A stretch of DNA of 64,000 bases from an uncultured Candidatus Binatia bacterium (GCA_965218305.1 OZ244617.1:3058983-3122982), one strand, 5' to 3'; numbered from the stretch's first letter, positions 2,369 to 30,010 are shown. Numbers and translations: made by a program. The notes: a model not told the origin generated them from the sequence alone.

Positions 2369-5300
2369 ATGCCCTTCTACGCGGACCTGCACGTCCACTC
2401 CCGGTTCTCCCGCGCCACCAGCCCGAACTGCGACCTGGAGCACCTGGCCATCTGGGCGCGCAAGAAGGGCATCGGCGTCGTCGGAACCGGTGACTTCACC
2501 CATCCGGCGTGGCGCGCCGAGTTGAAGGAGCAACTCGTGCCGGCCGAACCCGGCCTGTTTCGCCTGCGCCCCGATCTCGAACGGGCTGTCGAGGGGCAGC
2601 TTCCGCCGGCCTGCGCCGGCAGCCTCACCACCGTCCGGTTCATGCTGTCGGTGGAAATCTCGACCATCTACAAAAAGGGCGACAAGACTCGGAAGATCCA
2701 TCACCTGGTCTATGCCCCGGACTTCGACTCCGCGGACCGGCTGGTGGCCAGCCTTACCAGGATCGGCAACCTCCACTCGGACGGGCGGCCCATCCTGGGG
2801 CTGGACTCCCGGCACCTGCTGGAGATGACGCTGGAGTCGGGCCCCGGTTCGTATCTCGTGCCGGCACACGTATGGACCCCGTGGTTCGCCGCGCTGGGCT
2901 CGAAGTCCGGCTTCGACGCCGTGGACGACTGCTACGGGGACCTGGCGCCGCACATCTTCGCCGTGGAGACGGGACTCTCGTCGGACCCGCCGATGAACTG
3001 GCGGGTGTCGTCCCTGGACCGTTTCCGGCTGGTGTCCAACTCCGACGCCCATTCGCCGGAGAAGCTCGGCCGGGAGGTGTGCGTCTTCGACACGGAGATG
3101 GACTACTTCGCCGTGCGCAGGGCGCTGGAAACGGGCGAGGGCTACGGAGGGACCCTGGAGTTCTTTCCGGAAGAAGGCAAATACCACCTGGACGGCCACC
3201 GCAACTGCAACGTCCGCCTGGAGCCGGATGAGACCCGCCGGCGCGACGGCCGCTGCCCGGCGTGCGGCAAGCCCTTGACCGTGGGCGTCATGCACCGCGT
3301 CGAGGATCTGGCGGACCGGGCTCCGGACGCCACGCCACCGGACACCGCGGGCGACACCTGGGGACTGATCCCGCTGCCGGAAATCCTGGGGGAGATCCAC
3401 CGGGTAGGGCCCAAGAGCAAACGCGTGGCGCAGGACTACGAAGGACTCCTGGCCCGGCTGGGACCGGAGCTCCAGCTCCTCAACGCCCTGCCGCTGGAGG
3501 ACATCGGGCCGGTGGCGCCACCCCTGGTGGCCGAGGCGGTGGCGCGCCTGCGAAGACGCGAGGTGATCCGGGATGCCGGCTACGACGGTGTATATGGGAC
3601 GATTCGTCTGTTCCGGGACGCCGAGCTGGAACGGCGCGCACGCGGGGCGTCGCTCTTCGGGGACGAGCCGGCGGCCCCGGTCCAACCAGCGGCGTTTCAG
3701 GCGGCTCCCCCGCAAGCGCCGCCGGAGCCCTCACCCGAGGTGGCCCAGCCGATGACCGCGCCATGGGACCACGGGACGCCGGACCAATTGTCGCTCCCGG
3801 TACAACTGTCGCCCGGCAGCCGGGACCTCCTTGCCGGCCTGGACGGCGATCAACGCCAGGCCGCGGAGGTCGCCGACGGTCCCTTGCTCATCGTCGCCGG
3901 ACCCGGTTCGGGAAAGACCCGGACCCTGATCCACCGCCTCGCCCACCTGATCACGAGCCACGGTGTGCCACCGGGCGGCTGTCTGGCGGTCACCTTCACG
4001 CGCCGGGCGGCCGACGAGATGCGGAGCCGGTTGCGGGCGCTGTTGCCCGACCTATGGGCCGAGGTCCCGTTGCACACGTTCCATTCCCTGGGCCTGACCA
4101 TCCTCCGGGAGCACTGGAACGCCGCCGGACTCCAGCGCGGCTTCCGGGTCGCTTCCGAGGCCGAACGGCTCCAGTTGCTGCGGGACGTGACGGGCCTCTC
4201 CGAGCGTCAGGCCCGTGCCCGCCTGTCGGCCATCTCCCACGCCAGGCGGACGGGCACGCCACCCGCGGACGAGAAGCTCACGCAGGCGGCGGAGACCTAC
4301 CGGAGCGGGATGGAAACGCGGAACTGGTGCGACTTCGACGACCTGGTCCTGCGCGCCGCGGACGCCCTGGAAAGCCATGCCGAGAGCCGTGCGCGGGTGC
4401 GGGAGCGGTATCCTTGGGTCTGCATCGACGAGTACCAGGACGTGGACGAGCAACAGGTCCGGCTCATCAGGCAAATCGTGCCGCCCGACGGCAACATCTG
4501 CGCCATCGGCGACCCCGATCAGGCCATTTACGGCTTCCGGGGCGCGGACCGGCGATTCTTCACGGAGTTCATCGACCACTTCCCCGCCGCCCGAGTGGTG
4601 CGGCTCAGCCGCAACTACCGGTCCGAGCGGAACATCGTTACCCTGTCGTCGCAGGTGATCGCCCCGGCGGCCTCGGCCGGACCATCCGTCCCGGTGCTCG
4701 ACGACGCCCCCAACCGCATCACCCTGCACGAAGCGGCGAGCGACAAGGCCGAGGCGGAATTCGTCGTCCAGTCGCTGGAGCAGACCCTCGGCGGCCACAG
4801 CTTCTTCTCCATCGACAGCGGCCGCTCGACCGAGGCCCAGGGGCACGACTTCTCGTTCTCGGACTTTGCCGTGCTCTACCGCACCGAGGCCCAGGCCGCG
4901 GCCCTGGCGGAGGCGCTGCAACGTTCCGGCATGCCCTTCCAGCAGCGGTCCCACAGCCCCCTTGTCGCTCATCCCGGAGTCGTCGCGCTGATGGACTCCC
5001 TGGACCGCTCGCCCGGCACCGGCACGTTGCGGCAACGGCTCGAAGCGTCCTGCCTCGGCGACGAGCCGCCGGCCGCCGACAGGCTGGAAGCCTTCGAACT
5101 GCTGAAACCTCTGGCCGACGCCTGCGGCGACGACCTGGAACGGTTCCTGTCCGAGCTGTCCCTGGGCACGCAGGTGGACACCTGGGACCCCCGGGCCGAC
5201 CGCATCTCGCTGCTGACCCTCCACGCCGCCAAAGGGCTCGAGTTTCCCGTGGTCTTCATCGTGGGCTGCGAGGACGGCCTGCTGCCCCTGAGCTGGGGAG

Positions 5301-5554
5301 GAGCCGGGCCGGACGACCTGGACGAGGAGCGGCGCCTCTTCTACGTCGGCGTCACCCGCGCCAGAACGAGGCTATACCTCTGCCGCGCCCGCAAGCGGCG
5401 CTGGCGGGGAAAGATCCGCGAGATGGCGCCGTCCCCCTACCTCGCTGACATCGAGGAACGCCTCCTCGAACAGAGCCGGTCGCGGCACCGCGGCCAGCGG
5501 AGCCGGAAGCAGGACAGCCAGTTGGATTTGTTTTCGGAGGGAAAGTTACGGTAG
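2369..5554 (+). CDS. Fusion protein: N-terminal PHP-domain EndoQ-like nuclease (with CPACG zinc finger) + C-terminal UvrD/PcrA/Rep-family superfamily-1 helicase
   Basis: N-terminus YADLHVHSRFSRATS has the PHP-type His/Asp metal motif. Further PHP motifs are VWTPWF, NSDAHSPEKLG and a CPACGKPL zinc ribbon. Downstream are the UvrD helicase motif I (LIVAGPGSGKTRTL), a DEYQD box (CIDEYQDVD) and C-terminal UvrD_C motifs (LLTLHAAKGLEFPVVFIVG, LFYVGVTRAR). Confidence 0.7.
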   Translation: MPFYADLHVHSRFSRATSPNCDLEHLAIWARKKGIGVVGTGDFTHPAWRAELKEQLVPAEPGLFRLRPDLERAVEGQLPPACAGSLTTVRFMLSVEISTIYKKGDKTRKIHHLVYAPDFDSADRLVASLTRIGNLHSDGRPILGLDSRHLLEMTLESGPGSYLVPAHVWTPWFAALGSKSGFDAVDDCYGDLAPHIFAVETGLSSDPPMNWRVSSLDRFRLVSNSDAHSPEKLGREVCVFDTEMDYFAVRRALETGEGYGGTLEFFPEEGKYHLDGHRNCNVRLEPDETRRRDGRCPACGKPLTVGVMHRVEDLADRAPDATPPDTAGDTWGLIPLPEILGEIHRVGPKSKRVAQDYEGLLARLGPELQLLNALPLEDIGPVAPPLVAEAVARLRRREVIRDAGYDGVYGTIRLFRDAELERRARGASLFGDEPAAPVQPAAFQAAPPQAPPEPSPEVAQPMTAPWDHGTPDQLSLPVQLSPGSRDLLAGLDGDQRQAAEVADGPLLIVAGPGSGKTRTLIHRLAHLITSHGVPPGGCLAVTFTRRAADEMRSRLRALLPDLWAEVPLHTFHSLGLTILREHWNAAGLQRGFRVASEAERLQLLRDVTGLSERQARARLSAISHARRTGTPPADEKLTQAAETYRSGMETRNWCDFDDLVLRAADALESHAESRARVRERYPWVCIDEYQDVDEQQVRLIRQIVPPDGNICAIGDPDQAIYGFRGADRRFFTEFIDHFPAARVVRLSRNYRSERNIVTLSSQVIAPAASAGPSVPVLDDAPNRITLHEAASDKAEAEFVVQSLEQTLGGHSFFSIDSGRSTEAQGHDFSFSDFAVLYRTEAQAAALAEALQRSGMPFQQRSHSPLVAHPGVVALMDSLDRSPGTGTLRQRLEASCLGDEPPAADRLEAFELLKPLADACGDDLERFLSELSLGTQVDTWDPRADRISLLTLHAAKGLEFPVVFIVGCEDGLLPLSWGGAGPDDLDEERRLFYVGVTRARTRLYLCRARKRRWRGKIREMAPSPYLADIEERLLEQSRSRHRGQRSRKQDSQLDLFSEGKLR

Positions 5555-6007
5555 CGGATCAAGATCGAACAACCGCACATCTCCCGCTTTAGTAATGCGG
5601 GCAATGAGGGGTGGTTGTGTCTTCGCAACGACGCGCCGGATCTTTGGCAAGGCCTTGACAATAGCCGAGGCCATCTCGTCACCCGACATGTTACCGGAAG
5701 GCAGAATAAACGCTCGGGCCCCGCTTCGCTGGAGTGCGTGGCGCTCGACGGGTCGCCTGCGTATTCGATCGTCCTTTGTAAGGATCAGCCATCCCCGCAG
5801 GCCCACCTCCGGCAGCCATTCTTCGTCTCGGGTATTCGTCGGGAAGTGATCCTTTAGCAATGCTACCGCGATTCCCTGATGACGGAGTGCGGTTGCGATG
5901 ACCTTGTCCCCCAAGCCCTGGTCGAGAAAAAAGGTGAAATCCTCAGGCGGCGTGCCCGTATTGCTCGCAACGGATCGCTTCTTCGATTTCTGACGGCGTT
6001 CGGTCAT
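5546..6007 (-). CDS. DUF5615/Mut7-C-like PIN-fold protein (putative toxin partner of DUF433)
   Basis: FTFFLDQGLGDKVIATALRHQGIAVALL resembles the DUF5615 N-terminal motif (F-L-I-D-E-N-L, then G-h-D-V). It lies immediately downstream of, and overlapping, the DUF433 gene. The start codon is uncertain: the ATG at 6007 gives a 65-nt overlap with the DUF433 gene. Confidence 0.4.
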   Translation of the reverse strand: MTERRQKSKKRSVASNTGTPPEDFTFFLDQGLGDKVIATALRHQGIAVALLKDHFPTNTRDEEWLPEVGLRGWLILTKDDRIRRRPVERHALQRSGARAFILPSGNMSGDEMASAIVKALPKIRRVVAKTQPPLIARITKAGDVRLFDLDPLP

Positions 6008-6716
6008 AGTCGTCCGCCAGTTGTTCTACGGACTCCCCCGCCCCAAAGCGTTGATAGATCACCTCCGTGGGTATGTGTGTGCCCGCCAACACCGGGCGGC
6101 CGAAGGCGACGCGAGGATCCACCACAACTATCCGCGGCGCAACCTCAGAGGTCTCCCATGTGTTTAGTTGCAGGTCCCGGCGGGTGAACAGGTAAAGTCT
6201 CACGGCAAGTCCAGAAAGGTCCCGCTCGATTCTTCGCAGGTGAATCTCCAGAACCTTCCGAATACCAAGCTGCCCCTCCTTCGAGATATTGATCAAACTC
6301 TCGAAGCTCTCGACGAAAAGGTCCAGTCCATCTGTTTCAAGCGTCCGATCGGCCAACGGATGAGGCGATGGATGTTTTCGCTTCAAATAGTCCAGAGCCT
6401 GTCTAACCGTTAATAAAGACACGTGATGTTGTCGGCGAATCGCCGCCAGGACATAGACCTCGATCAGATTTATGAACGACAACAAACAACGGTCGGCGTC
6501 AGCAAGGTCGATCACTGGTTGGAAGAATCGGGGTCCCGTGGAGGTTGGATAACCGCGCCCTCGGACCCATGCCCGCAGGGTAGCAGCCGGAACCTGGAGA
6601 TAGTGAGCCGCCTCCGGGATGCCGTAGGCCGGCAACTCAAGTGGATCCTTGCCGCCGTAAAGATCGATCGCCGTCTTCTCCTTCAAGGGTTTGTTCCTTC
6701 CGCCAAGGCTCCCCAT
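5943..6716 (-). CDS. DUF433 domain protein (antitoxin-like partner of a PIN-like/DUF5615 protein), unusually long N-terminal region
   Basis: The C-terminal segment FGRPVLAGTHIPTEVIYQRFGAGESVEQLADDY matches the DUF433 signature (R-P-x-I-x-G-T-R-I-x-V). It overlaps the downstream PIN-like gene in the manner of toxin-antitoxin pairs. Confidence 0.5.
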   Translation of the reverse strand: MGSLGGRNKPLKEKTAIDLYGGKDPLELPAYGIPEAAHYLQVPAATLRAWVRGRGYPTSTGPRFFQPVIDLADADRCLLSFINLIEVYVLAAIRRQHHVSLLTVRQALDYLKRKHPSPHPLADRTLETDGLDLFVESFESLINISKEGQLGIRKVLEIHLRRIERDLSGLAVRLYLFTRRDLQLNTWETSEVAPRIVVVDPRVAFGRPVLAGTHIPTEVIYQRFGAGESVEQLADDYDRTPSEIEEAIRCEQYGHAA

Positions 6717-6872
6717 GCCACGGGAGGGTCAAAGATCAAGTGTAACACGAAAAAATACCTGTGTGACAACACACTTCCGGCGGCATTCGCGGGACAGTCG
6801 GGCAAGGGCGACCGCCGGTCGCCCTTGCCCGAATAGACAATCGGAGAAATAAAGCCCGGACTCCGCCCCCGC

Positions 6873-7966: not shown

Positions 7967-9598
<1,632 letters not shown>

Positions 9599-9605
9599 AA
9601 TCGGC

Positions 9606-9670
9606 GAGCCCCGATCGGGGCTGACGACAAACAAAAGGGGGGAGGACGCCTGTCCTCCCCCCTTTTGTTT
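9606..9670 (+). terminator. Rho-independent terminator of groESL (two GC hairpins followed by T-run)
   Basis: Palindrome GCCCCGATCGGGGC (9609-9622), then the stem GGGGGGAGGAC-gcct-GTCCTCCCCCC (9637-9662), followed by TTTTGTTT. Confidence 0.75.
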
Positions 9671-9792
9671 GGATTATATTTTGTTTGGGAACTTATATAC
9701 TTGACTAAAATCCTGCTTCGGGCTGTCCTTCGGTGGCGACATCAATCGCTTGGCCAGTGCGTCAGGCGTGATGTCGTCCTCGGGCCGTCGGG

Positions 9793-10533
9793 TCAACCTC
9801 CCAGCCTACTTGAAACGCTCTCTACGGCGCGCATCGCCAAAGCGACTGCTTCAGACCGCTTCGCGATCGAATCCCGCATTTCGCCATCTATGCGTTTCAC
9901 CAAGGCCACATCATCGTCCGTTTCCGGCAATGGCACAAGGACACCCGCTGCTTGTTCCTCAGTGAGTTCATCGACCACGGCACCGTAAATGGTGGCTGTC
10001 AACTGCAGTTGCCCGAAAATAGACGTCAAGAACGAACACAGGTATCCGCTCGGACACTGATCTTCGTCGGGTACTATCCGCAGGATGTGTTGGGATGCTG
10101 CCCATCCATCCCACTCCTGAGGACAAATGGTCACCCTCCCGATGGTTCCGGAACACGTCACAAGCAACCAACCTGCTTCAACAATCCACCGCTCTAGCCT
10201 CTTATGGGCGGTCTTGGAAAGATACTTCAGATCCGCGGGCCGGAAGTGGACGACGTGGCTCCCTTGTAAAAATGGGATTCCTGAATCGGGCTCGACATAG
10301 ATGCGTTTAAACCGAGGTGGAATGAAGATCCGAGACACTATCGAGCCTAACCGTTTGACTCGCATTCCCGACTTGCTCAATTGTTCGACTGCATGCAGAA
10401 CAGCCGGATTGAAGTAACTAGCATCCAACCGAAGTTCCTGCATCTCCACAATAGTTCCAGAAGAGAGGAGGAAATTCTCTACTCGTGGTTGACCTGTGAC
10501 CCTGATAACGGGGCTTGTACTGGACTTTGCCAT
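9793..10533 (-). CDS. Restriction-modification specificity subunit, HsdS-like with a single target-recognition domain
   Basis: 246 aa. The N-terminal conserved HsdS block (KRLGSIVSRI...GIPFLQGSHV) is followed by one TRD and a C-terminal helical conserved region. It starts 7 nt downstream of the methyltransferase gene on the same strand, within the low-GC island. Confidence 0.55.
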   Translation of the reverse strand: MAKSSTSPVIRVTGQPRVENFLLSSGTIVEMQELRLDASYFNPAVLHAVEQLSKSGMRVKRLGSIVSRIFIPPRFKRIYVEPDSGIPFLQGSHVVHFRPADLKYLSKTAHKRLERWIVEAGWLLVTCSGTIGRVTICPQEWDGWAASQHILRIVPDEDQCPSGYLCSFLTSIFGQLQLTATIYGAVVDELTEEQAAGVLVPLPETDDDVALVKRIDGEMRDSIAKRSEAVALAMRAVESVSSRLGG

Positions 10534-10539
10534 CGGTCA

Positions 10540-12420
10540 CTATCCTTCTGCCCAGTCTTGAAAGGCGGCTGTGACACGCGGCAGATCGTCATCTATCGTG
10601 GGCCGGTTTTCTTCATCGAGAATCGTAAGCCCTTCCGGCGTCCTCATGTACACCGGGTCTCCTCTTTTGGTTATGCCAACTGTCTTCGGGATCGCCATGA
10701 AGATATCATACTTGTCCAATGCCCCCGCCTGAGCCAACTTCGTTTCATTCAGTGTCAACCGCTGGACTATCAGAACGCTTGGATTCGGTACGCCACCACC
10801 TTCCGCGAAGGTTTCTTTTGGTAGATCAATGGATGCAACGATTCTGGCGTTGCGCAACAGCCAAGTTCGGATGAACTTCAAGCCGGGATTGTTCAAAATA
10901 CTGTCGGGGAGAACAATTGCCAGATATCCTCCCCGTTTGGCATACTTCAACGCTCCCTCTACAAATAGTTGTTCCGCCGGCATCATCTGCCGGGACTCCT
11001 TGATGTTTTGCGACGGTAATTCATAGCGCGACAACGTGTGTGGGTCATCTATCTGGGCCTGTCCGCCAAACGGGGGATTAGTCACAACAATGTCGAAGTC
11101 CCCTTGTTTGACCTTCGCCCTCGCAGTTTCGTCATCCCACTCGCTTGGCGACACCAATGAATCTCCCTGGAACACATTGGCGGACCCGTCGCCGTGCATA
11201 ACAAGATTCATTTGCGTAGTACGGACGAGAAACGGGTTGATGTCCATTCCGAAGAGGTTACGTTCAGCGAGTTCCTTGACGCGACCGCCAACGCGAGCCC
11301 GTATTTCGTCCTCCACCCCGCCCCTGGATTGCTCAAGTTCTTCTATTGTCTTGCGCAGCAAATTTAGCGTAGCAACCAGAAAGCCGCCGGTCCCACAACA
11401 GCAATCCAACACTTTGATGGATGTCAGTCGCCTACGAGGAAACAGGGAGAGCGCCATGCTTACGGTCATGTCGCAAACGTTACGTGGCGTGAAGAATTCG
11501 CCACGGTCCCCTCGCAAATTTGCCCCGACAAGTTCTTCATAGGCAGCGCCTTTAACGTCAGTGTTAGTACGAAGGAATGTGTACCGCTGCAATTCTGATA
11601 CGATATAGGCAAGTACGCGTGGGTGTAACTCTATGCCCTCCGTCTGTTTGAAGATGTACGGATATCGGTGCTTGACATCGGTAAAAAGGGGCGCAATTCG
11701 GTCCCGGACCAATGTCGTTTGGCCGGCAATTGACCTTCGTTCCTCGCTGGTCACGAAGAACCTCAGTGCGTCCATTGCCTCGTATTCGTCCAGTACCTTG
11801 CAGAAAATCAGTTTTTGAAGTTCGTGGAACGCTTCGGCCTTCTGTAGCCCTTGGTTTGCATAGATGTAGTTGTGGCAACGTCGAAGCGACGCCTTCAGGT
11901 CTATTGCGGGGGTGAGTTCTTTAAACGTGGGTGCCTTTGGTTGCATGTCGCCGTGGCGCGGTATGTCAGTCGTTTCCTCGATTCTGCCACCCTGCGCCTT
12001 CTCATAGGCTATTTTTTCAGAACCGACCCACAGGCCGTGTCGGCACGACGAGCATACGCTCATGTAACTCTTTAGCTGTTCTACCCCCTCCTTTTTGTCC
12101 TTTGTCGATACGCCCTCGCGCTTTGCTTCGACCACGATAAGGATTGAATCCTGGCGTCGCGGGCCGCCCGGCTTGAATACGACGATATCAGCGCGCTTCC
12201 GCGATGCTCCCATTTTGACCGAGAATTCAACCGCGATATCTGCTACATCGTATTTGTACTCTTCAACGAGACTTCGCGCCCATCTCTGCCGCACGTTTTC
12301 TTCAGGCGTGTCCTTTCTGAGTTGTCCAGTAATGAAACACCTAAGCTTCCCGGCTGGGATAAACGGTATAATTTCACTCATCCACGATGTCCTCGCGCAT
12401 GACGGCAGAGCAATCCCCAA
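10540..12420 (-). CDS. Fused restriction endonuclease/N6-adenine DNA methyltransferase (HsdR_N-type PD-(D/E)xK nuclease domain + gamma-class N6A MTase); Type IIB/IIG-like RM enzyme
   Basis: N-terminal nuclease motif ADIVVF...ILIVVEAKREG (D...E-x-K). SAM-binding motif I VLDCCCGTGGFLV. Catalytic motif IV IVVTNPPFGG. 626 aa in total, encoded in the low-GC island. Confidence 0.7.
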   Translation of the reverse strand: MGIALPSCARTSWMSEIIPFIPAGKLRCFITGQLRKDTPEENVRQRWARSLVEEYKYDVADIAVEFSVKMGASRKRADIVVFKPGGPRRQDSILIVVEAKREGVSTKDKKEGVEQLKSYMSVCSSCRHGLWVGSEKIAYEKAQGGRIEETTDIPRHGDMQPKAPTFKELTPAIDLKASLRRCHNYIYANQGLQKAEAFHELQKLIFCKVLDEYEAMDALRFFVTSEERRSIAGQTTLVRDRIAPLFTDVKHRYPYIFKQTEGIELHPRVLAYIVSELQRYTFLRTNTDVKGAAYEELVGANLRGDRGEFFTPRNVCDMTVSMALSLFPRRRLTSIKVLDCCCGTGGFLVATLNLLRKTIEELEQSRGGVEDEIRARVGGRVKELAERNLFGMDINPFLVRTTQMNLVMHGDGSANVFQGDSLVSPSEWDDETARAKVKQGDFDIVVTNPPFGGQAQIDDPHTLSRYELPSQNIKESRQMMPAEQLFVEGALKYAKRGGYLAIVLPDSILNNPGLKFIRTWLLRNARIVASIDLPKETFAEGGGVPNPSVLIVQRLTLNETKLAQAGALDKYDIFMAIPKTVGITKRGDPVYMRTPEGLTILDEENRPTIDDDLPRVTAAFQDWAEG

Positions 12421-27662: not shown

Positions 27663-27724
27663 GCCGAACCCGCACGGTCGCCGCGGCCCGGCTAGCGGCC
27701 GGGTTCGCGCGACTCGACAAAAGC

Positions 27725-29278
27725 ATGAGCGCTCCGCGACTCGAACTGCCGGACCCCTACAACGCGGCCACCACGTTCGTCGACGACAACGTCACCGCGG
27801 GCCGTGGCGAGCGCACCGCGATCCTGTACGAGGACCAGCGGTTCACCTACCGGCAGGTCCAGGAGGCGGTCAACCGGGCCGGCAACGCGTTCCGCGGCCT
27901 CGGCCTGGACACCGAGCAGCGCGTCCTGCTGGTGCTCCCCGACTGTCCCGAGTTCGCTTCCAGCTTCTTCGGCGCCATCAAGATCGGCGCCGTTCCCATT
28001 CCGGTGAATCCCTGGATGAAGGCCGGGGATTACGAGTATCTCCTCAACGACAGCCGGGCTCGCATCGTCGTGGTGCACGAGTCCGCGCTGCCGGAGATCG
28101 AGGCCATCCGCCAGCGGCCGCGCCACCTGCGGCACGTCGTGGTCGTGGAAACGTCGCGGGGTAGCGCCACGGGTTGGGACGCCCTGCTGGAGGGACAGTC
28201 CGCGGAGCTCGAAGCGGAACCCACCGGACGCGACGATGTCGTCATGTGGAACTACACCTCGGGCAGCACCGGCAACCCCAAGGGCGCGGTCCACCTCCAG
28301 CACGACATGATCACCATCACGGATCTGTTCGTGAAGCCCGTGCTCGGCATGACCGAAGACGACGTCTGCCTCTCCGCCTCCAAATTGTTCTTTTCCTACG
28401 GGCTGGGGAACTCCCTCTACTTCCCCTTCCGTTTCGGCGCCGCCGGCGTGCTGTGGCCCGAACGGCCGGATCCGGAGAAAATCCTCCAAACCATCGAGCG
28501 GTACCGGCCCACCTTCTTCTTCTCGGTGCCGACGCTCTACGCCCGCATGCTGCGGGTGGAAAAGGAATACGACCTCGGCTCCCTCAAGGTCTGCCTGTCC
28601 TCCGGAGAGCCGCTGCCGCCGGCCCTCTTCAATCAGTGGCGGGAGAAAGTCGGCGTGGAGTTGCTGGACGTCGTAGGCTCCACCGAGGCGACCCACGATT
28701 TTCTCGCCAACCGGCCGGGACGGGCCAAGGCGGGAAGCAGCGGCGAGGTGACGCCGGCCTTCGTGGCCAAGGTGGTGGACGACGAGGGGCGGGAGGTGCC
28801 CAACGGCGAGGTGGGCAACCTGTACGTCAGCGGCGACGCCACCGCGCCCTACTACTGGAACAAGCACGAGCAGACCCAGCGCACCATGCTCGGGGAGTGG
28901 CTCAAGACCGGCGACACGTACTACCGGGACGACGACGGCTATTTCTGGTACTGCGGCCGCTCCGACGACATGCTCAAGGTGGGCGGCCTGTGGGTCTCGC
29001 CCATCGAGGTGGAGAACGCGTTGATGGAGCATCCGGTGGTGCTCGAGGCGGCGGTGACCGGAGCGGCGGACGGCGACGGCCTCATCAAGCCCAAGGCCTA
29101 CGTCATCCTCAAGACCGAGCACCGCGGCGCCGATGGGCTGGCCCAGGAGCTGCAGGACTTCGTCAAGGGCAGCCTGGAACCGTACAAATACCCGCGCTGG
29201 GTGGAGTTCGTGGAAGATTTGCCGAAGACCGTGACCGGCAAGATACAGCGGTTCAAGCTCAGAGAAGGGAATGGATGA
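27725..29278 (+). CDS. Benzoate-CoA ligase family aryl-carboxylate--CoA ligase (AMP-binding)
   Basis: AMP-binding motifs YTSGSTGNPKG and YRTGD-like (WLKTGDTYYRDDDGYFWYCGRSDDMLKVGGLWVSP). Start at MSAPRLE; the longer ORF would overlap the ALDH gene. Confidence 0.8.
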   Translation: MSAPRLELPDPYNAATTFVDDNVTAGRGERTAILYEDQRFTYRQVQEAVNRAGNAFRGLGLDTEQRVLLVLPDCPEFASSFFGAIKIGAVPIPVNPWMKAGDYEYLLNDSRARIVVVHESALPEIEAIRQRPRHLRHVVVVETSRGSATGWDALLEGQSAELEAEPTGRDDVVMWNYTSGSTGNPKGAVHLQHDMITITDLFVKPVLGMTEDDVCLSASKLFFSYGLGNSLYFPFRFGAAGVLWPERPDPEKILQTIERYRPTFFFSVPTLYARMLRVEKEYDLGSLKVCLSSGEPLPPALFNQWREKVGVELLDVVGSTEATHDFLANRPGRAKAGSSGEVTPAFVAKVVDDEGREVPNGEVGNLYVSGDATAPYYWNKHEQTQRTMLGEWLKTGDTYYRDDDGYFWYCGRSDDMLKVGGLWVSPIEVENALMEHPVVLEAAVTGAADGDGLIKPKAYVILKTEHRGADGLAQELQDFVKGSLEPYKYPRWVEFVEDLPKTVTGKIQRFKLREGNG

Positions 29279-29308
29279 TCGCCGGATCATAGATCGATCG
29301 GGGGTTTC

Positions 29309-30010
29309 ATGGACGACTTGGTAGCGTTGAGAGACAAAGTGGCGATCTCGTGCAATATCCTGGCCATCGATGGGCACTGGGACAATATCCTGGGGCATGT
29401 ATCGGCCCGGGTGCCGGGCGAGAACGCCATGTTGATGAAGCCCCACAGCTACGGCTTCGAGGAGATCCGCCCGTACCACATCATCAAGGTGGACTTCGAC
29501 GGCAACAAGACAGAAGGCGACTACGAGCGCCACTCCGAGGTCTTCATCCACACGGAGATCTACAAGGCGCGCCCGGATGTGAACTGCGTCATCCACAGCC
29601 ATCCGCCCTACGCCACGGCTTTTGCCTCCCTGAGACAGCCGCTGCGGCCGGTGAGCCACGAGGGCTCCATCTTCCACGATGGGCTCCCCCTCTTCGACTA
29701 CACCACGATCCTGATCCGGACGCCCGAGCTGGGGGTGGAGCTGGCCAAGAAGCTGGCCCAGGCCCGCGCCGTGCTGATGAAGAACCACGGCTCCACCGTG
29801 GTGGCCGAATCGGTGGAGACCGCTACCCTGTACGCGATCTTTCTGGAGAAGGCGTGCCGCATACAGCTCCTTGCCGCCGCTGCCGGAGATCCCACCTGGA
29901 GCAGCGACGAGGAAGCGCGGGAGAAGTACGAGCAGATATATACGCCGCACCGGCTCGGCAGCATGTGGGACTATTTCGTGCGCCGCGCGAAACGGCTCGC
30001 CATCGACTGA
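29309..30010 (+). CDS. Class II aldolase/adducin-family protein
   Basis: HSHPPYATAF zinc-ligand region. 233 aa. Confidence 0.75.
   Translation: MDDLVALRDKVAISCNILAIDGHWDNILGHVSARVPGENAMLMKPHSYGFEEIRPYHIIKVDFDGNKTEGDYERHSEVFIHTEIYKARPDVNCVIHSHPPYATAFASLRQPLRPVSHEGSIFHDGLPLFDYTTILIRTPELGVELAKKLAQARAVLMKNHGSTVVAESVETATLYAIFLEKACRIQLLAAAAGDPTWSSDEEAREKYEQIYTPHRLGSMWDYFVRRAKRLAID

What the first reader, a model, noticed from the sequence alone, without database searches (positions are those of the whole stretch)
2369..5554. Single 1061-aa ORF fusing an EndoQ-like PHP/zinc-ribbon nuclease domain to a UvrD-family helicase
The N-terminal ~300 aa carry PHP metal motifs (HVHSRFS, NSDAHSPE) and a CPACG zinc ribbon. 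These are characteristic of endonuclease Q, which in archaea and Bacillus cuts 5' of deaminated or abasic bases. The C-terminal ~600 aa is a complete SF1 UvrD/PcrA-type helicase (GSGKT, DEYQD, UvrD_C). Physical coupling of a lesion-specific endonuclease with a 3'-5' helicase suggests a self-contained incision-plus-unwinding repair or anti-foreign-DNA module. It stands alone between a transporter operon and a toxin-antitoxin pair.
Basis: partly seen in the sequence, partly recalled or inferred. Interest (0 to 1): 0.55.

Follow-up and report, generated by a model that had tools for sequence, protein, structure and literature searches.

The report
Clamp-tethered EndoQ nuclease fused to UvrD helicase
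This gene encodes one protein that joins a nuclease predicted to nick DNA beside deaminated or missing bases to a UvrD-type unwinding motor and a sliding-clamp docking tag; it is a real, widespread bacterial gene type already listed in the literature but never tested biochemically.

Summary
Window 2369-5554 (+) is one uninterrupted 1061-aa ORF.

- **Nuclease half.** Residues 1-428 are a complete endonuclease Q module (PHP, zinc and C-terminal helical domains). phmmer against PfuEndoQ gives E=6e-42. An AlphaFold model (pLDDT 94) matches 5ZB8/7K30 at TM 0.82-0.89, against 0.32 for generic PHP enzymes. Every catalytic, wedge and lesion-pocket side chain is kept.
- **Helicase half.** Residues 488-1030 are a UvrD/PcrA-type SF1 helicase with all motifs intact, but the 2B subdomain is cut to about 72 aa.
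The protein ends in QLDLF, the optimal bacterial beta-clamp-binding motif. This tail is conserved in nearly all of 81 orthologues from at least 10 phyla.
- **Distribution.** The fusion is uninterrupted in all 81 loci and present in at least 593 species genomes. The nearest relatives are Candidatus Binatia. It has no conserved neighbour and sits in core chromosome. The EndoQ domain is absent from phage and viral collections and nearly absent from plasmids.

The most likely role is clamp-coupled nick-and-unwind repair of deaminated or abasic bases, not defence.

It is not new. Shiraishi et al. 2016 (Suppl. Fig. S1) already tabulated about 1000-aa bacterial EndoQ homologues with this clamp motif. 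No biochemical study was found. I rate it a new member of a known, uncharacterised kind.

The parts
2369..5554 (+). Whole gene: 1061-aa EndoQ-UvrD fusion protein (stop codon included)
   Evidence: ORF list. The N-terminus MPFYADLHVH matches the orthologue consensus. Full-length orthologues are found in 81/81 loci.
2369..3166 (+). EndoQ PHP catalytic domain (aa 1-266). Metal ligands are H8, H10, E96, H111, H167, D226 and H228. Also present: R140, wedge W172, and lesion pocket T170/E200/G202/L203/S204/N224.
   Evidence: Residue-by-residue alignment to PfuEndoQ H8, H10, E76, H84, H139, D193, H195, R114, W144, T142, E167, G169, L170, S171, N191 (roles from PMC5961232, and PMC8307549). Invariant in 51 close relatives and in 46 fusion-clade sequences.
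3167..3370 (+). EndoQ zinc-binding domain (aa 267-334): Y272 and ligands H277, C280, C296, C299 (an HCCC site in place of the C4 site)
   Evidence: Aligns to PfuEndoQ Y244, C249, C252, C268, C271. H277 occurs in 46/46 fusion-clade sequences, where the Brevibacillus-type and archaeal enzymes have Cys.
3371..3652 (+). EndoQ C-terminal helical domain (aa 335-428)
   Evidence: Aligned to PfuEndoQ 304-384. Modelled at pLDDT above 90 and superposes on 5ZB8.
3653..3829 (+). Pro/Ala-rich, probably disordered linker (aa 429-487)
   Evidence: Only 16% mean identity across orthologues; length varies from 40 to 130 aa. Composition P14, A9, Q6 of 59 residues. No secondary structure and pLDDT below 50 in the full-length model.
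3830..5458 (+). SF1A UvrD/PcrA-type helicase core (aa 488-1030). Motifs: Q495, GPGSGKT 511-517, TFT 542-544, DEYQD 687-691, GDPDQAIYGFRGA 714-726, NYRS 749-752, TLHAAKGLEFPVVF 950-963, VGVTRA 993-998.
   Evidence: Pfam UvrD-helicase, UvrD_C and AAA_19. PDB: D. radiodurans UvrD at E=3e-79, and PcrA. Motif residues invariant; positions.
4934..5158 (+). Truncated 2B subdomain (about aa 856-930)
   Evidence: The two HMMER stretches leave 72 query residues where DrUvrD has 167 (chain 381-547). The region is 65-120 aa in all 80 orthologues aligned.
5459..5518 (+). Variable basic tail (aa 1031-1050) leading to the clamp motif
   Evidence: 22% mean identity across orthologues. Sequence: LEQSRSRHRGQRSRKQDS.
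5519..5533 (+). Beta-sliding-clamp-binding motif QLDLF (aa 1051-1055)
   Evidence: Exact match to the consensus QL[S/D]LF (PMC12309361). Q1051 and F1055 are invariant and L1054 is at least 90% conserved in 51 relatives. A terminal Q-L-x-L-[F/L/I]-type motif is present in nearly all of 81 orthologues. The same motif is tabulated for long bacterial EndoQ homologues in PMC4858679 Suppl. Fig. S1.
5540..6867 (-). Not part of the system: a 1.3-kb inserted PIN_10 plus DUF433/HTH_66 toxin-antitoxin-like pair. It abuts the gene's 3' end and appends five residues (EGKLR) after the clamp motif.
   Evidence: Window 5001-5539 matches L001 8639-9177 and window 6868-8200 matches L001 9191-10523; only 13 bp lie between these in L001. 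Pfam hits. GC is 55-59% here against about 70% in the gene.

Best explanation
The gene encodes a 'long-form' bacterial endonuclease Q, made of four parts. (1) A catalytically intact EndoQ module that, like the archaeal and Bacillus enzymes, should flip a deaminated base (uracil, hypoxanthine, xanthine) or an abasic site into its pocket. It should then cut the phosphodiester bond immediately 5' of the lesion, leaving a 3'-OH and a 5'-phosphate that carries the lesion. (2) A flexible 40-130-aa linker. (3) A UvrD/PcrA-type SF1A (3'->5') helicase with a minimal 2B subdomain. (4) A C-terminal QLDLF peptide that docks on the beta sliding clamp.

Proposed sequence of events. The clamp left on newly replicated or repaired DNA concentrates the enzyme there. 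The EndoQ module nicks 5' of the lesion. The tethered helicase then loads at that nick. The productive geometry would be translocation 3'->5' along the undamaged strand, which peels the lesion-bearing strand off as a 5' flap or gap. This would also pull the nuclease off its product, to which PfuEndoQ otherwise stays bound. A clamp-bound polymerase, a 5' nuclease and ligase would finish the repair.

Shown here: domain identities, conservation of the active sites, the clamp motif, distribution and genomic context. Inferred: substrate range, helicase polarity and loading strand, actual clamp binding, and the downstream steps.
For: EndoQ identity. phmmer against PfuEndoQ gives E=6e-42 over the whole enzyme. 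The AF2 model (pLDDT 94.2, pTM 0.92) hits 5ZB8/7K30 at TM 0.82-0.89, against TM 0.32 for generic PHP enzymes. All metal ligands are conserved, as are R114, W144, G169, L170 and H195, whose mutation cripples PfuEndoQ. At four positions (S14, H112, R140, W172) the fusion clade agrees with archaeal EndoQ, where the Brevibacillus-type relatives of the active B. pumilus enzyme differ.

Helicase. Pfam UvrD-helicase and UvrD_C; DrUvrD at E=3e-79; all SF1 motifs invariant.

Clamp motif. QLDLF equals the consensus and was a nanomolar binder in E. coli (PMC12309361). It is conserved at the C-terminus across phyla while the preceding tail is only 22% conserved. Archaeal EndoQ carries a PIP box at the same place, and PCNA stimulates it (PMC4858679; Thermococcales tails).

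Purifying selection on the fusion. The ORF is uninterrupted in 81/81 loci. At least 593 species genomes carry it. The top 150 of 3706 50%-identity clusters are almost all about 1000 aa or longer.

Housekeeping context. The gene sits between tctA, a GST gene and groESL, with metG, holB and aroE further along. This arrangement is syntenic in Binatia. No neighbour is conserved across phyla. No copies were found in 50,697 phage records or 2.9 M viral contigs, and only one stand-alone copy in 72,556 plasmids.

A need for a release or unwinding factor. PfuEndoQ stays bound to its product, and a helicase step was already drawn into published EndoQ pathway models (PMC5961232; PMC4357722).
Against: There are no biochemical or genetic data for any long-form EndoQ, so every activity is inferred from homology. 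The TIGR00375 score (142 bits) is far below that model's cutoff of 326.6. Two positions differ consistently from characterised EndoQs (L168->T and zinc ligand C249->H), so specificity could have shifted. The helicase scores well below the PcrA/UvrD/Rep equivalog cutoffs and has a truncated 2B, so its behaviour cannot be read directly from UvrD. The strand on which it loads is a guess. The full-length structure prediction failed (pLDDT 53), so there is no information on how the two halves are arranged. No conserved partner gene (flap nuclease, ligase) supports a dedicated pathway.
Confidence: 0.6

Rival explanations
1. Anti-phage or anti-foreign-DNA nuclease-helicase. The EndoQ module recognises uracil-containing or otherwise non-canonical invader DNA, nicks it, and the helicase promotes its destruction.
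For: An antiviral side-role has been suggested for Bacillus EndoQ (review PMC8307549). The helicase half hits PADLOC GajB and DRT-helicase models. In this window the gene abuts a toxin-antitoxin-like pair.
Against: The PADLOC hits cover only the generic UvrD core (aa 488-870), and no GajA-like partner is present. The toxin-antitoxin pair is a 1.3-kb insertion missing from the closest relative. No neighbour is conserved across phyla and the context is core chromosome. The EndoQ domain is absent from 50,697 phage records and 2.9 M viral contigs, and present on 1 of 72,556 plasmids as a stand-alone form. A conserved beta-clamp motif points to the host replisome. Conservation is very high across phyla (EndoQ domain 56-77% identity), unlike fast-evolving defence genes.
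Confidence: 0.08
2. Primarily an accessory, clamp-tethered helicase with a Rep/PcrA/UvrD-like role: clearing proteins, R-loops or stalled complexes at forks. The EndoQ module would serve as a DNA-lesion or structure anchor, or process a different substrate (for example embedded ribonucleotides or oxidised pyrimidines) rather than performing classical deaminated-base repair.
For: The helicase is complete in its motor motifs. A truncated 2B would be expected, from Rep-delta-2B work (my own knowledge), to give a more active monomer. The clamp motif places the protein at forks. Two fusion-specific substitutions lie in or near the EndoQ pocket and zinc site. PfuEndoQ's substrate range is already known to extend to oxidised pyrimidines (PMC8307549).
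Against: The EndoQ module is the most conserved part of the protein (71% against 49% mean identity), and its catalytic and pocket side chains are invariant. That argues the canonical nuclease chemistry and recognition are what selection maintains. EndoQ-only derivatives of this clade also exist (L083).
Confidence: 0.2
3. Assembly or sequencing artefact: two adjacent genes (endoQ and a uvrD-like gene) joined by a frameshift error.
For: Some database entries of this clade are EndoQ-only ORFs. One of them is followed by a separate UvrD fragment (L082).
Against: The ORF is uninterrupted in 81/81 independent genomes, including complete genomes of cultured Sorangium and Actinoplanes. At least 8000 full-length database relatives exist. 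In L082 the gene is visibly broken next to an IS91 element. Most other short entries lie on short contigs, and the NCBI-named ones are largely labelled 'partial'.
Confidence: 0.01
4. The N-terminal region is a generic PHP phosphoesterase with no EndoQ function.
For: The local Pfam copy finds no significant PHP or EndoQ domain (only PHP_C at E=0.0096). The TIGR00375 score is below its cutoff.
Against: There is a gap of about 30 orders of magnitude between EndoQ and generic PHP structures in the fold search. The EndoQ-specific zinc and C-terminal helical domains are present. Pocket and wedge residues are conserved. The precomputed Pfam annotation carries PF27218 MJ0043_C.
Confidence: 0.02

Closest known systems
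Long (about 950-1250 aa) bacterial EndoQ homologues tabulated by Shiraishi et al. 2016 (Sci Rep, PMC4858679, Suppl. Fig. S1). They are probably one of the two bacterial 'families' defined 'based on the domain organization' in Shiraishi et al. 2017, as cited in PMC5961232.
   Same: Same protein family. The listed genera (Sorangium, Rhodococcus rhodnii, Saccharopolyspora, Opitutaceae, the Rhodothermus lineage, Inquilinus) overlap my loci. Protein sizes match, and the same QL[D/S]LF-type motif sits at the extreme C-terminus.
   Different: This copy comes from a Candidatus Binatia-like genome that is not in that list. The texts I could read do not state that the extra region is a UvrD helicase, and the 2017 paper is not held. 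No member has been characterised.
Pyrococcus furiosus / Thermococcus kodakarensis endonuclease Q (PDB 5ZB8, 7K30-7K33)
   Same: Same three-domain fold (TM 0.82-0.89). Same metal ligands, wedge Trp and lesion pocket. A C-terminal clamp-docking peptide is present.
   Different: About 29% identity. Stand-alone, about 420 aa. It carries a PIP box for PCNA instead of a beta-clamp motif, has a C4 zinc site instead of HCCC, and has no helicase.
Bacillus pumilus / B. subtilis EndoQ (stand-alone bacterial form; represented here by Brevibacillus 'endonuclease Q family protein')
   Same: A bacterial EndoQ with demonstrated dU/dI/AP 5'-incision activity (PMC5961232). Shares the catalytic core.
   Different: About 31% identity and about 390 aa, with no helicase. 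The 21 Brevibacillus-type tails examined carry no clamp motif. These sequences differ at S14, H112, R140 and W172, where the fusion clade agrees with the archaeal enzyme.
UvrD / PcrA / Rep (SF1A helicases; PDB 4C2U, 1PJR, 2IS1)
   Same: All helicase motifs and the 1A/1B/2A architecture; about 270 bits to DrUvrD. UvrD likewise acts at nicks made by a repair endonuclease in NER and MMR (my own knowledge).
   Different: The 2B subdomain is cut to about 72 aa. There is no room for the C-terminal RNA-polymerase-binding domain (only about 36 aa follow the core). A clamp motif is present instead. Scores are far below the equivalog cutoffs.
NucS/EndoMS of Actinobacteria
   Same: A repair endonuclease also found in archaea. 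The bacterial versions carry a C-terminal beta-clamp motif that is required for low mutation rates, and the clamp stimulates cleavage (PMC6159521). This is the same PCNA-versus-beta-clamp pairing seen between archaeal and bacterial forms.
   Different: Unrelated fold (RecB-like nuclease). Mismatch-specific, makes double-strand cuts, and has no helicase.
AddA / RecB helicase-nucleases
   Same: A UvrD-like SF1A motor covalently joined to a nuclease (weak NCBIfam hits).
   Different: The nuclease is a C-terminal PD-(D/E)XK domain that acts on DNA ends, not an N-terminal lesion-specific PHP nuclease. They work in multi-subunit complexes.

Membership tests
Endonuclease Q (EndoQ / TIGR00375 / MJ0043 family) | Similarity across all three EndoQ domains (PHP, zinc-binding, C-terminal helical) to a biochemically proven EndoQ | tested here: met
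   phmmer E=6e-42, query 5-416 against PfuEndoQ 5-384. Foldseek 5ZB8 E=8e-36, TM 0.82/0.88; 7K30 E=2e-32, using a model with pLDDT 94.2.
Endonuclease Q (EndoQ / TIGR00375 / MJ0043 family) | Catalytic metal ligands H8, H10, E76, H84, H139, D193, plus the essential R114 and H195 | tested here: met
   Query H8, H10, E96, H111, H167, D226, R140, H228. 46/46 in the fusion clade, except H167 at 45/46. Roles from PMC5961232.
Endonuclease Q (EndoQ / TIGR00375 / MJ0043 family) | Lesion pocket (T142, E167, L168, G169, L170, S171, N191) and wedge W144 | tested here: met
   T170, E200, G202, L203, S204, N224 and W172 are conserved. The only change is L168->T201, a position that contributes main-chain atoms.
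Endonuclease Q (EndoQ / TIGR00375 / MJ0043 family) | C4 zinc finger (C249, C252, C268, C271) | tested here: inconclusive
   The query and the whole fusion clade have H277, C280, C296, C299. A His-Cys3 site could still bind zinc, but this was not shown.
Endonuclease Q (EndoQ / TIGR00375 / MJ0043 family) | Score above the curated NCBIfam TIGR00375 cutoff (326.6 bits) | tested here: not met
   142 bits for the domain alone. Archaeal TkoEndoQ scores 434. The Brevibacillus 'endonuclease Q family protein' also falls short at 264, so the cutoff in effect delimits the archaeal type.
Endonuclease Q (EndoQ / TIGR00375 / MJ0043 family) | C-terminal sliding-clamp interaction motif | tested here: met
   QLDLF at aa 1051-1055, conserved across orthologues. 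It is the bacterial counterpart of the archaeal PIP box. Actual binding was not tested.
Endonuclease Q (EndoQ / TIGR00375 / MJ0043 family) | Incision immediately 5' of dU, dI, dX or AP sites | not testable with these tools
   Requires an enzyme assay.
UvrD/PcrA/Rep-type SF1A helicase | Helicase motifs Q, I, Ia, II, III, IV, V, VI | tested here: met
   Q495, GPGSGKT, TFT, DEYQD, GDPDQAIYGFRGA, NYRS, TLHAAKGLEFPVVF, VGVTRA. Motif residues invariant in 51 relatives.
UvrD/PcrA/Rep-type SF1A helicase | Pfam UvrD-helicase and UvrD_C above their gathering scores | tested here: met
   213.4 bits against a cutoff of 23, and 122.7 bits against 25.6.
UvrD/PcrA/Rep-type SF1A helicase | Orthology to PcrA, UvrD or Rep (NCBIfam equivalog cutoffs) | tested here: not met
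   PcrA 362 against 911; UvrD 294 against 1144; Rep 292 against 951.
UvrD/PcrA/Rep-type SF1A helicase | Full-size 2B regulatory subdomain (about 170 aa) | tested here: not met
   72 residues lie between the aligned blocks where DrUvrD has 167. The region is 65-120 aa in all orthologues.
UvrD/PcrA/Rep-type SF1A helicase | 3'->5' translocation and unwinding | not testable with these tools
   Inferred from family membership only.
Gabija GajB (defence helicase) | UvrD-like helicase encoded next to a GajA OLD-family nuclease | tested here: not met
   PADLOC GajB models hit only the generic helicase core. The neighbours are TctA and a PIN_10/DUF433 pair, with no GajA. No partner is conserved in 80 loci.

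The most novel reading that the evidence does not exclude
The long-form EndoQ would be a self-sufficient, glycosylase-independent 'nick-and-peel' excision machine that rides the beta clamp. Its 2B-truncated helicase would act as a constitutively active monomer that both releases the product-bound nuclease and strips the lesion-bearing strand. On this reading it would be a major, so far unstudied anti-deamination pathway in many phyla (Actinomycetota, Myxococcota, Planctomycetota, Binatia and others), and the bacterial counterpart of the archaeal EndoQ-PCNA route.
Probability: 0.35. Interest if true: 0.55.

Novelty: new member of a known kind. Interest (0 to 1): 0.3.

Why it matters
EndoQ is usually presented as an archaeal enzyme found in only 'a few bacteria' (PMC4858679; similar wording in PMC4357722 and PMC5961232). 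The searches here show the opposite for the helicase-fused form. At least 593 species-level genomes in at least 10 phyla carry it, it forms several thousand sequence clusters, and its nuclease domain is 56-77% identical across phyla. Nobody has reported what the covalently attached UvrD-type motor does. If the fusion really carries out clamp-coupled incision plus unwinding, it is a widespread bacterial route for removing uracil, hypoxanthine and abasic sites without a glycosylase. It would be experimentally tractable, because cultured Micromonospora, Streptomyces, Sorangium, Rhodococcus rhodnii and Zymomonas carry it. For this particular window, however, the gene is simply one more ordinary member of that catalogued family.

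Tried and rejected
- **Full-length AlphaFold2 model.** Run with a shallow alignment of 72-98%-identical relatives, it gave mean pLDDT 53 and pTM 0.37. It is unusable and was not used for any domain-arrangement claim.
- **Gene-neighbourhood clustering.** I clustered the flanks of 80 loci. After removing shadow ORFs that overlap the gene, no neighbour was conserved across phyla. The only synteny is within Binatia and within Micromonosporaceae.
- **PADLOC.** Only generic GajB/DRT helicase-core hits. Rejected as evidence for defence.
- **Phage, plasmid and IMG/VR searches with the EndoQ domain.** Nothing relevant was found.
- **Pfam on the N-terminal half.** No significant hit, because the local copy lacks PF27218.
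- **Literature.** No held paper describes the helicase fusion explicitly. One search was a badly framed search and gave nothing useful. Shiraishi 2017 (BBB), Shi 2021 (PNAS) and Shiraishi & Iwai 2020 are not held.
- **Promoter/terminator scan, tRNA scan and Rfam scan.** Nothing informative.
- **A second clamp-like motif in the linker (QLSLPV).** The exact hexapeptide occurs in only 2 of 80 aligned sequences (this window and L027), with QLSLPA in L001. It is therefore not a family feature.

Full report
**Observation.** Window 2369-5554 (+) is a single ATG-initiated ORF of 1061 codons. Pfam finds UvrD-helicase (aa 493-739, 213 bits), UvrD_C, AAA_19 and UvrD_C_2. NCBIfam finds PcrA, UvrD and Rep at 290-360 bits, well below their equivalog cutoffs, and TIGR00375 at E=1e-39. 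The flanking genes are as described: a TctA transporter subunit ending 30 nt upstream, and a convergent PIN_10 plus DUF433/HTH_66 pair downstream.

**N-terminal module: EndoQ, not a generic PHP enzyme.**
- phmmer of aa 1-470 against all PDB sequences returns only P. furiosus EndoQ (5ZB8, 7K30-33). E=6e-42, with query 5-416 aligned to chain 5-384, which covers the PHP, zinc-binding and C-terminal helical domains.
- Read against the structural and mutational literature (PMC5961232; PMC8307549), the alignment conserves every key residue:
  - metal ligands: H8, H10, E96, H111, H167, D226;
  - essential residues R140 (R114 in Pfu) and H228 (H195);
  - wedge W172 (W144);
  - pocket residues T170, E200, G202, L203, S204, N224;
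  - Y272 (Y244).
- There are two systematic differences: L168->T201, and the first zinc ligand C249->H277.
- A census over 46 fusion-clade, 21 Brevibacillus-type and 21 Thermococcales sequences shows these features are fixed. At S14, H112, R140 and W172 the fusion clade agrees with the archaeal enzyme rather than with the Brevibacillus type.
- An AlphaFold2 model of aa 1-430, built on an 88-sequence alignment that spans the three clades, has pLDDT 94.2 and pTM 0.92.
- Foldseek against the PDB gives 5ZB8 at E=8e-36 (TM 0.82/0.88) and the DNA complex 7K30 at E=2e-32. The next hits, generic PHP phosphoesterases (2ANU, 3O0F), are at E about 3e-4 and TM about 0.32.
- One caveat: the TIGR00375 score (142 bits) is below that model's cutoff of 326.6. 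A Brevibacillus 'endonuclease Q family protein' also falls short at 264, whereas TkoEndoQ scores 434.

**C-terminal module.**
- aa 488-1030 align to D. radiodurans UvrD (E=3e-79), PcrA, M. tuberculosis UvrD1, E. coli UvrD and Rep.
- Motifs Q, I, Ia, II, III, IV, V and VI are present, and their residues are invariant in 51 relatives.
- The alignment falls into two blocks. They leave 72 query residues where DrUvrD has 167, so the 2B subdomain is cut to less than half. It measures 65-120 aa in all 80 orthologues aligned.
- Only about 36 residues follow the helicase core, so there is no room for the C-terminal domain of canonical UvrD/PcrA.

- The protein ends ...RKQDSQLDLFSEGKLR. QLDLF (aa 1051-1055, nt 5519-5533) is the consensus beta-clamp-binding pentapeptide QL[S/D]LF, and it bound the E. 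coli clamp with nanomolar affinity (PMC12309361).
- Q1051 and F1055 are invariant in 51 close relatives.
- In 81 orthologues from at least 10 phyla the extreme C-terminus is Q-L-x-L-[F/L/I] or a QxxLF variant. The one clear exception is a sequence cut by a contig end.
- The 20 residues before the motif are only 22% conserved, and the inter-domain linker only 16%. This is the classic signature of a functional short linear motif.
- Thermococcales EndoQs carry a PIP box at the same place, and PCNA stimulates them through it (PMC4858679). The Brevibacillus-type stand-alone enzymes end without any such motif.

**Distribution, and whether the fusion is real.**
- The full-length query saturates the 5.8-billion-protein search. 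All 8000 scored candidates passed E<=1e-10, and nearly all of the top 120 are full-length (about 1050-1335 aa) fusions.
- The EndoQ domain alone finds 3706 50%-identity clusters, 1117 of them at E<=1e-30. The top 150 are almost all about 1000 aa or longer.
The best matches are Candidatus Binatia MAGs at 83-88% identity, so the window very probably comes from that lineage.
- The others span Alpha- and Gammaproteobacteria, Planctomycetota, Myxococcota (Sorangium), many Actinomycetota (Micromonospora, Streptomyces, Saccharopolyspora, Rhodococcus rhodnii, Salinispora, Actinoplanes), Verrucomicrobiota, Gemmatimonas, Thermoanaerobaculia, Gastranaerophilales and Rhodothermaceae.
- The ORF is uninterrupted in all 81 loci (936-1418 aa). 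This rejects a frameshift artefact.
- Across phyla the EndoQ domain is 56-77% identical to the query and is the most conserved part of the protein: 71% mean identity against 49% for helicase domains 1A/1B.
- Rare degenerate or split forms exist. In L082 an EndoQ ORF is followed by a 314-aa UvrD fragment and an IS91 element. L083 is an EndoQ-only gene.

**Genomic context.**
- No neighbouring gene is conserved across phyla.
- In the two closest Binatia genomes tctA lies directly upstream with the same spacing. In L001 a GST gene follows 19 bp downstream, then groES-groEL.
- BLASTN shows that window 5540-6867 (the PIN_10/DUF433 pair) replaces 13 bp of L001. It is therefore a 1.3-kb insertion, which also appends EGKLR after the clamp motif.
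- The rest of the window is core chromosome: groESL, aroE-like, metG, holB, a prepilin peptidase and an aldehyde dehydrogenase.
- The EndoQ domain has no match in 50,697 phage records or 2.9 M IMG/VR contigs. It has a single stand-alone match on 72,556 plasmids, on a Brevibacillus megaplasmid.
- PADLOC returns only generic GajB/DRT helicase-core hits, with no GajA partner.

**Mechanism.**
- Shown: an intact EndoQ active site and lesion pocket, an intact SF1A motor with a minimal 2B, a flexible linker, a conserved clamp-binding peptide, and housekeeping context.
- Inferred: the clamp concentrates the enzyme on recently replicated or repaired DNA. The EndoQ module nicks 5' of dU, dI, dX or AP sites, as the archaeal and Bacillus enzymes do (PMC4357722, PMC5961232). 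The tethered helicase then loads at the nick.
- For the lesion to be removed, the 3'->5' motor should track the undamaged strand and peel off the strand whose 5' end carries the lesion. That is the geometry generally assumed for UvrD after the 5' incision in NER (my own knowledge).
- Because PfuEndoQ stays bound to its product (PMC5961232), the motor may also provide turnover.
- A helicase step was already drawn in the original EndoQ pathway model (PMC4357722).
- I put about 0.6 on this overall mechanism and at least 0.95 on the domain assignments.
- The defence reading gets about 0.08, and a 'mainly a fork helicase or altered substrate' reading about 0.2.

**Comparison with what is known, and novelty.**
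- Shiraishi et al. 2016 state that beta-clamp motifs occur at the C-termini of bacterial EndoQ homologues.
- Their Supplementary Fig. S1 lists about 35 homologues of 945-1244 aa with QL[D/S]LF-type termini (Desulfobacter, Sorangium, Rhodococcus rhodnii, Saccharopolyspora, Opitutaceae, Rhodothermus, Zymomonas, Geobacter metallireducens and others), plus about 10 short ones.
- Miyazono et al. 2018 cite a 2017 classification of EndoQs into three families 'based on the domain organization', two of them bacterial. That paper is not held, so I could not verify that it names the helicase domain.
- NCBI annotates full-length members as 'UvrD-helicase domain-containing protein' and N-terminal fragments as 'endonuclease Q family protein'. 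The precomputed Pfam domain is PF27218, MJ0043_C.
- I found no biochemical or genetic study of any long-form member.
- The gene is therefore a new member, from Binatia, of a catalogued but uncharacterised kind. The literature's remark that 'a few bacteria' carry EndoQ understates how common this form is.

**Verdict.** The repair reading is favoured over the defence reading. Interest is modest (0.3). Nothing about this copy is unusual apart from the toxin-antitoxin cassette inserted at its 3' end. What remains open is the unstudied role of the fused motor and of clamp coupling in this very widespread family.

Noticed in passing
window 5540-6867: A PIN_10 (5546-6007, -) plus DUF433/HTH_66 (5943-6716, -) toxin-antitoxin-like pair forms a 1.3-kb, lower-GC (55-59%) insertion. 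In the closest relative, L001, only 13 bp occupy this site. The insertion begins inside the last codons of the fusion gene, so the protein gains five residues (EGKLR) after its clamp motif. The convergent PIN gene overlaps the fusion's stop codon by 9 nt.
   Followed up: partly
window 3785-3802 (aa 473-478): The linker contains QLSLPV, which resembles the hexapeptide type of clamp-binding motif (QLSLPL). It occurs only in this window and L027, with QLSLPA in L001. It is therefore either a feature specific to this Binatia subclade (a possible second clamp contact) or chance.
   Followed up: partly
L082 5001-9335; L083 5001-6574: Degenerate relatives of the fusion. In L082 an EndoQ-only ORF (498 aa) is followed by a 314-aa UvrD fragment and an IS91-family transposase, so the gene is visibly disrupted next to the IS element. 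In L083 a 434-aa EndoQ-only gene of the same clade is followed by a PhdYeFM antitoxin gene, with no helicase.
   Followed up: partly
protein P0464: UniRef labels a stand-alone 421-aa Thermococcus barophilus EndoQ as 'DNA helicase II'. JGI labels several N-terminal EndoQ-only fragments 'DNA helicase II / PcrA'. This looks like annotation transferred from the helicase-fused bacterial homologues.
   Followed up: no
aa 277 of the protein (window 3197-3199) and all fusion-clade sequences: The first zinc-finger cysteine of EndoQ (C249 in P. furiosus) is histidine in 46/46 fusion-clade sequences and cysteine in all 42 stand-alone sequences examined. L168 is likewise always threonine in the fusion clade. 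Both are clean clade markers of unknown consequence.
   Followed up: partly
window 9600-12380: About 2.8 kb after groEL has no long ORF with the high third-position GC typical of this genome. GC drops to about 0.58 at 9500-10000. No tRNA or Rfam family was found there.
   Followed up: no
window 27692-29950 (-): A 752-aa ORF has a noticeably lower third-position GC (0.64) than its neighbours (0.85-0.95). It may be horizontally acquired. It was not annotated.
   Followed up: no
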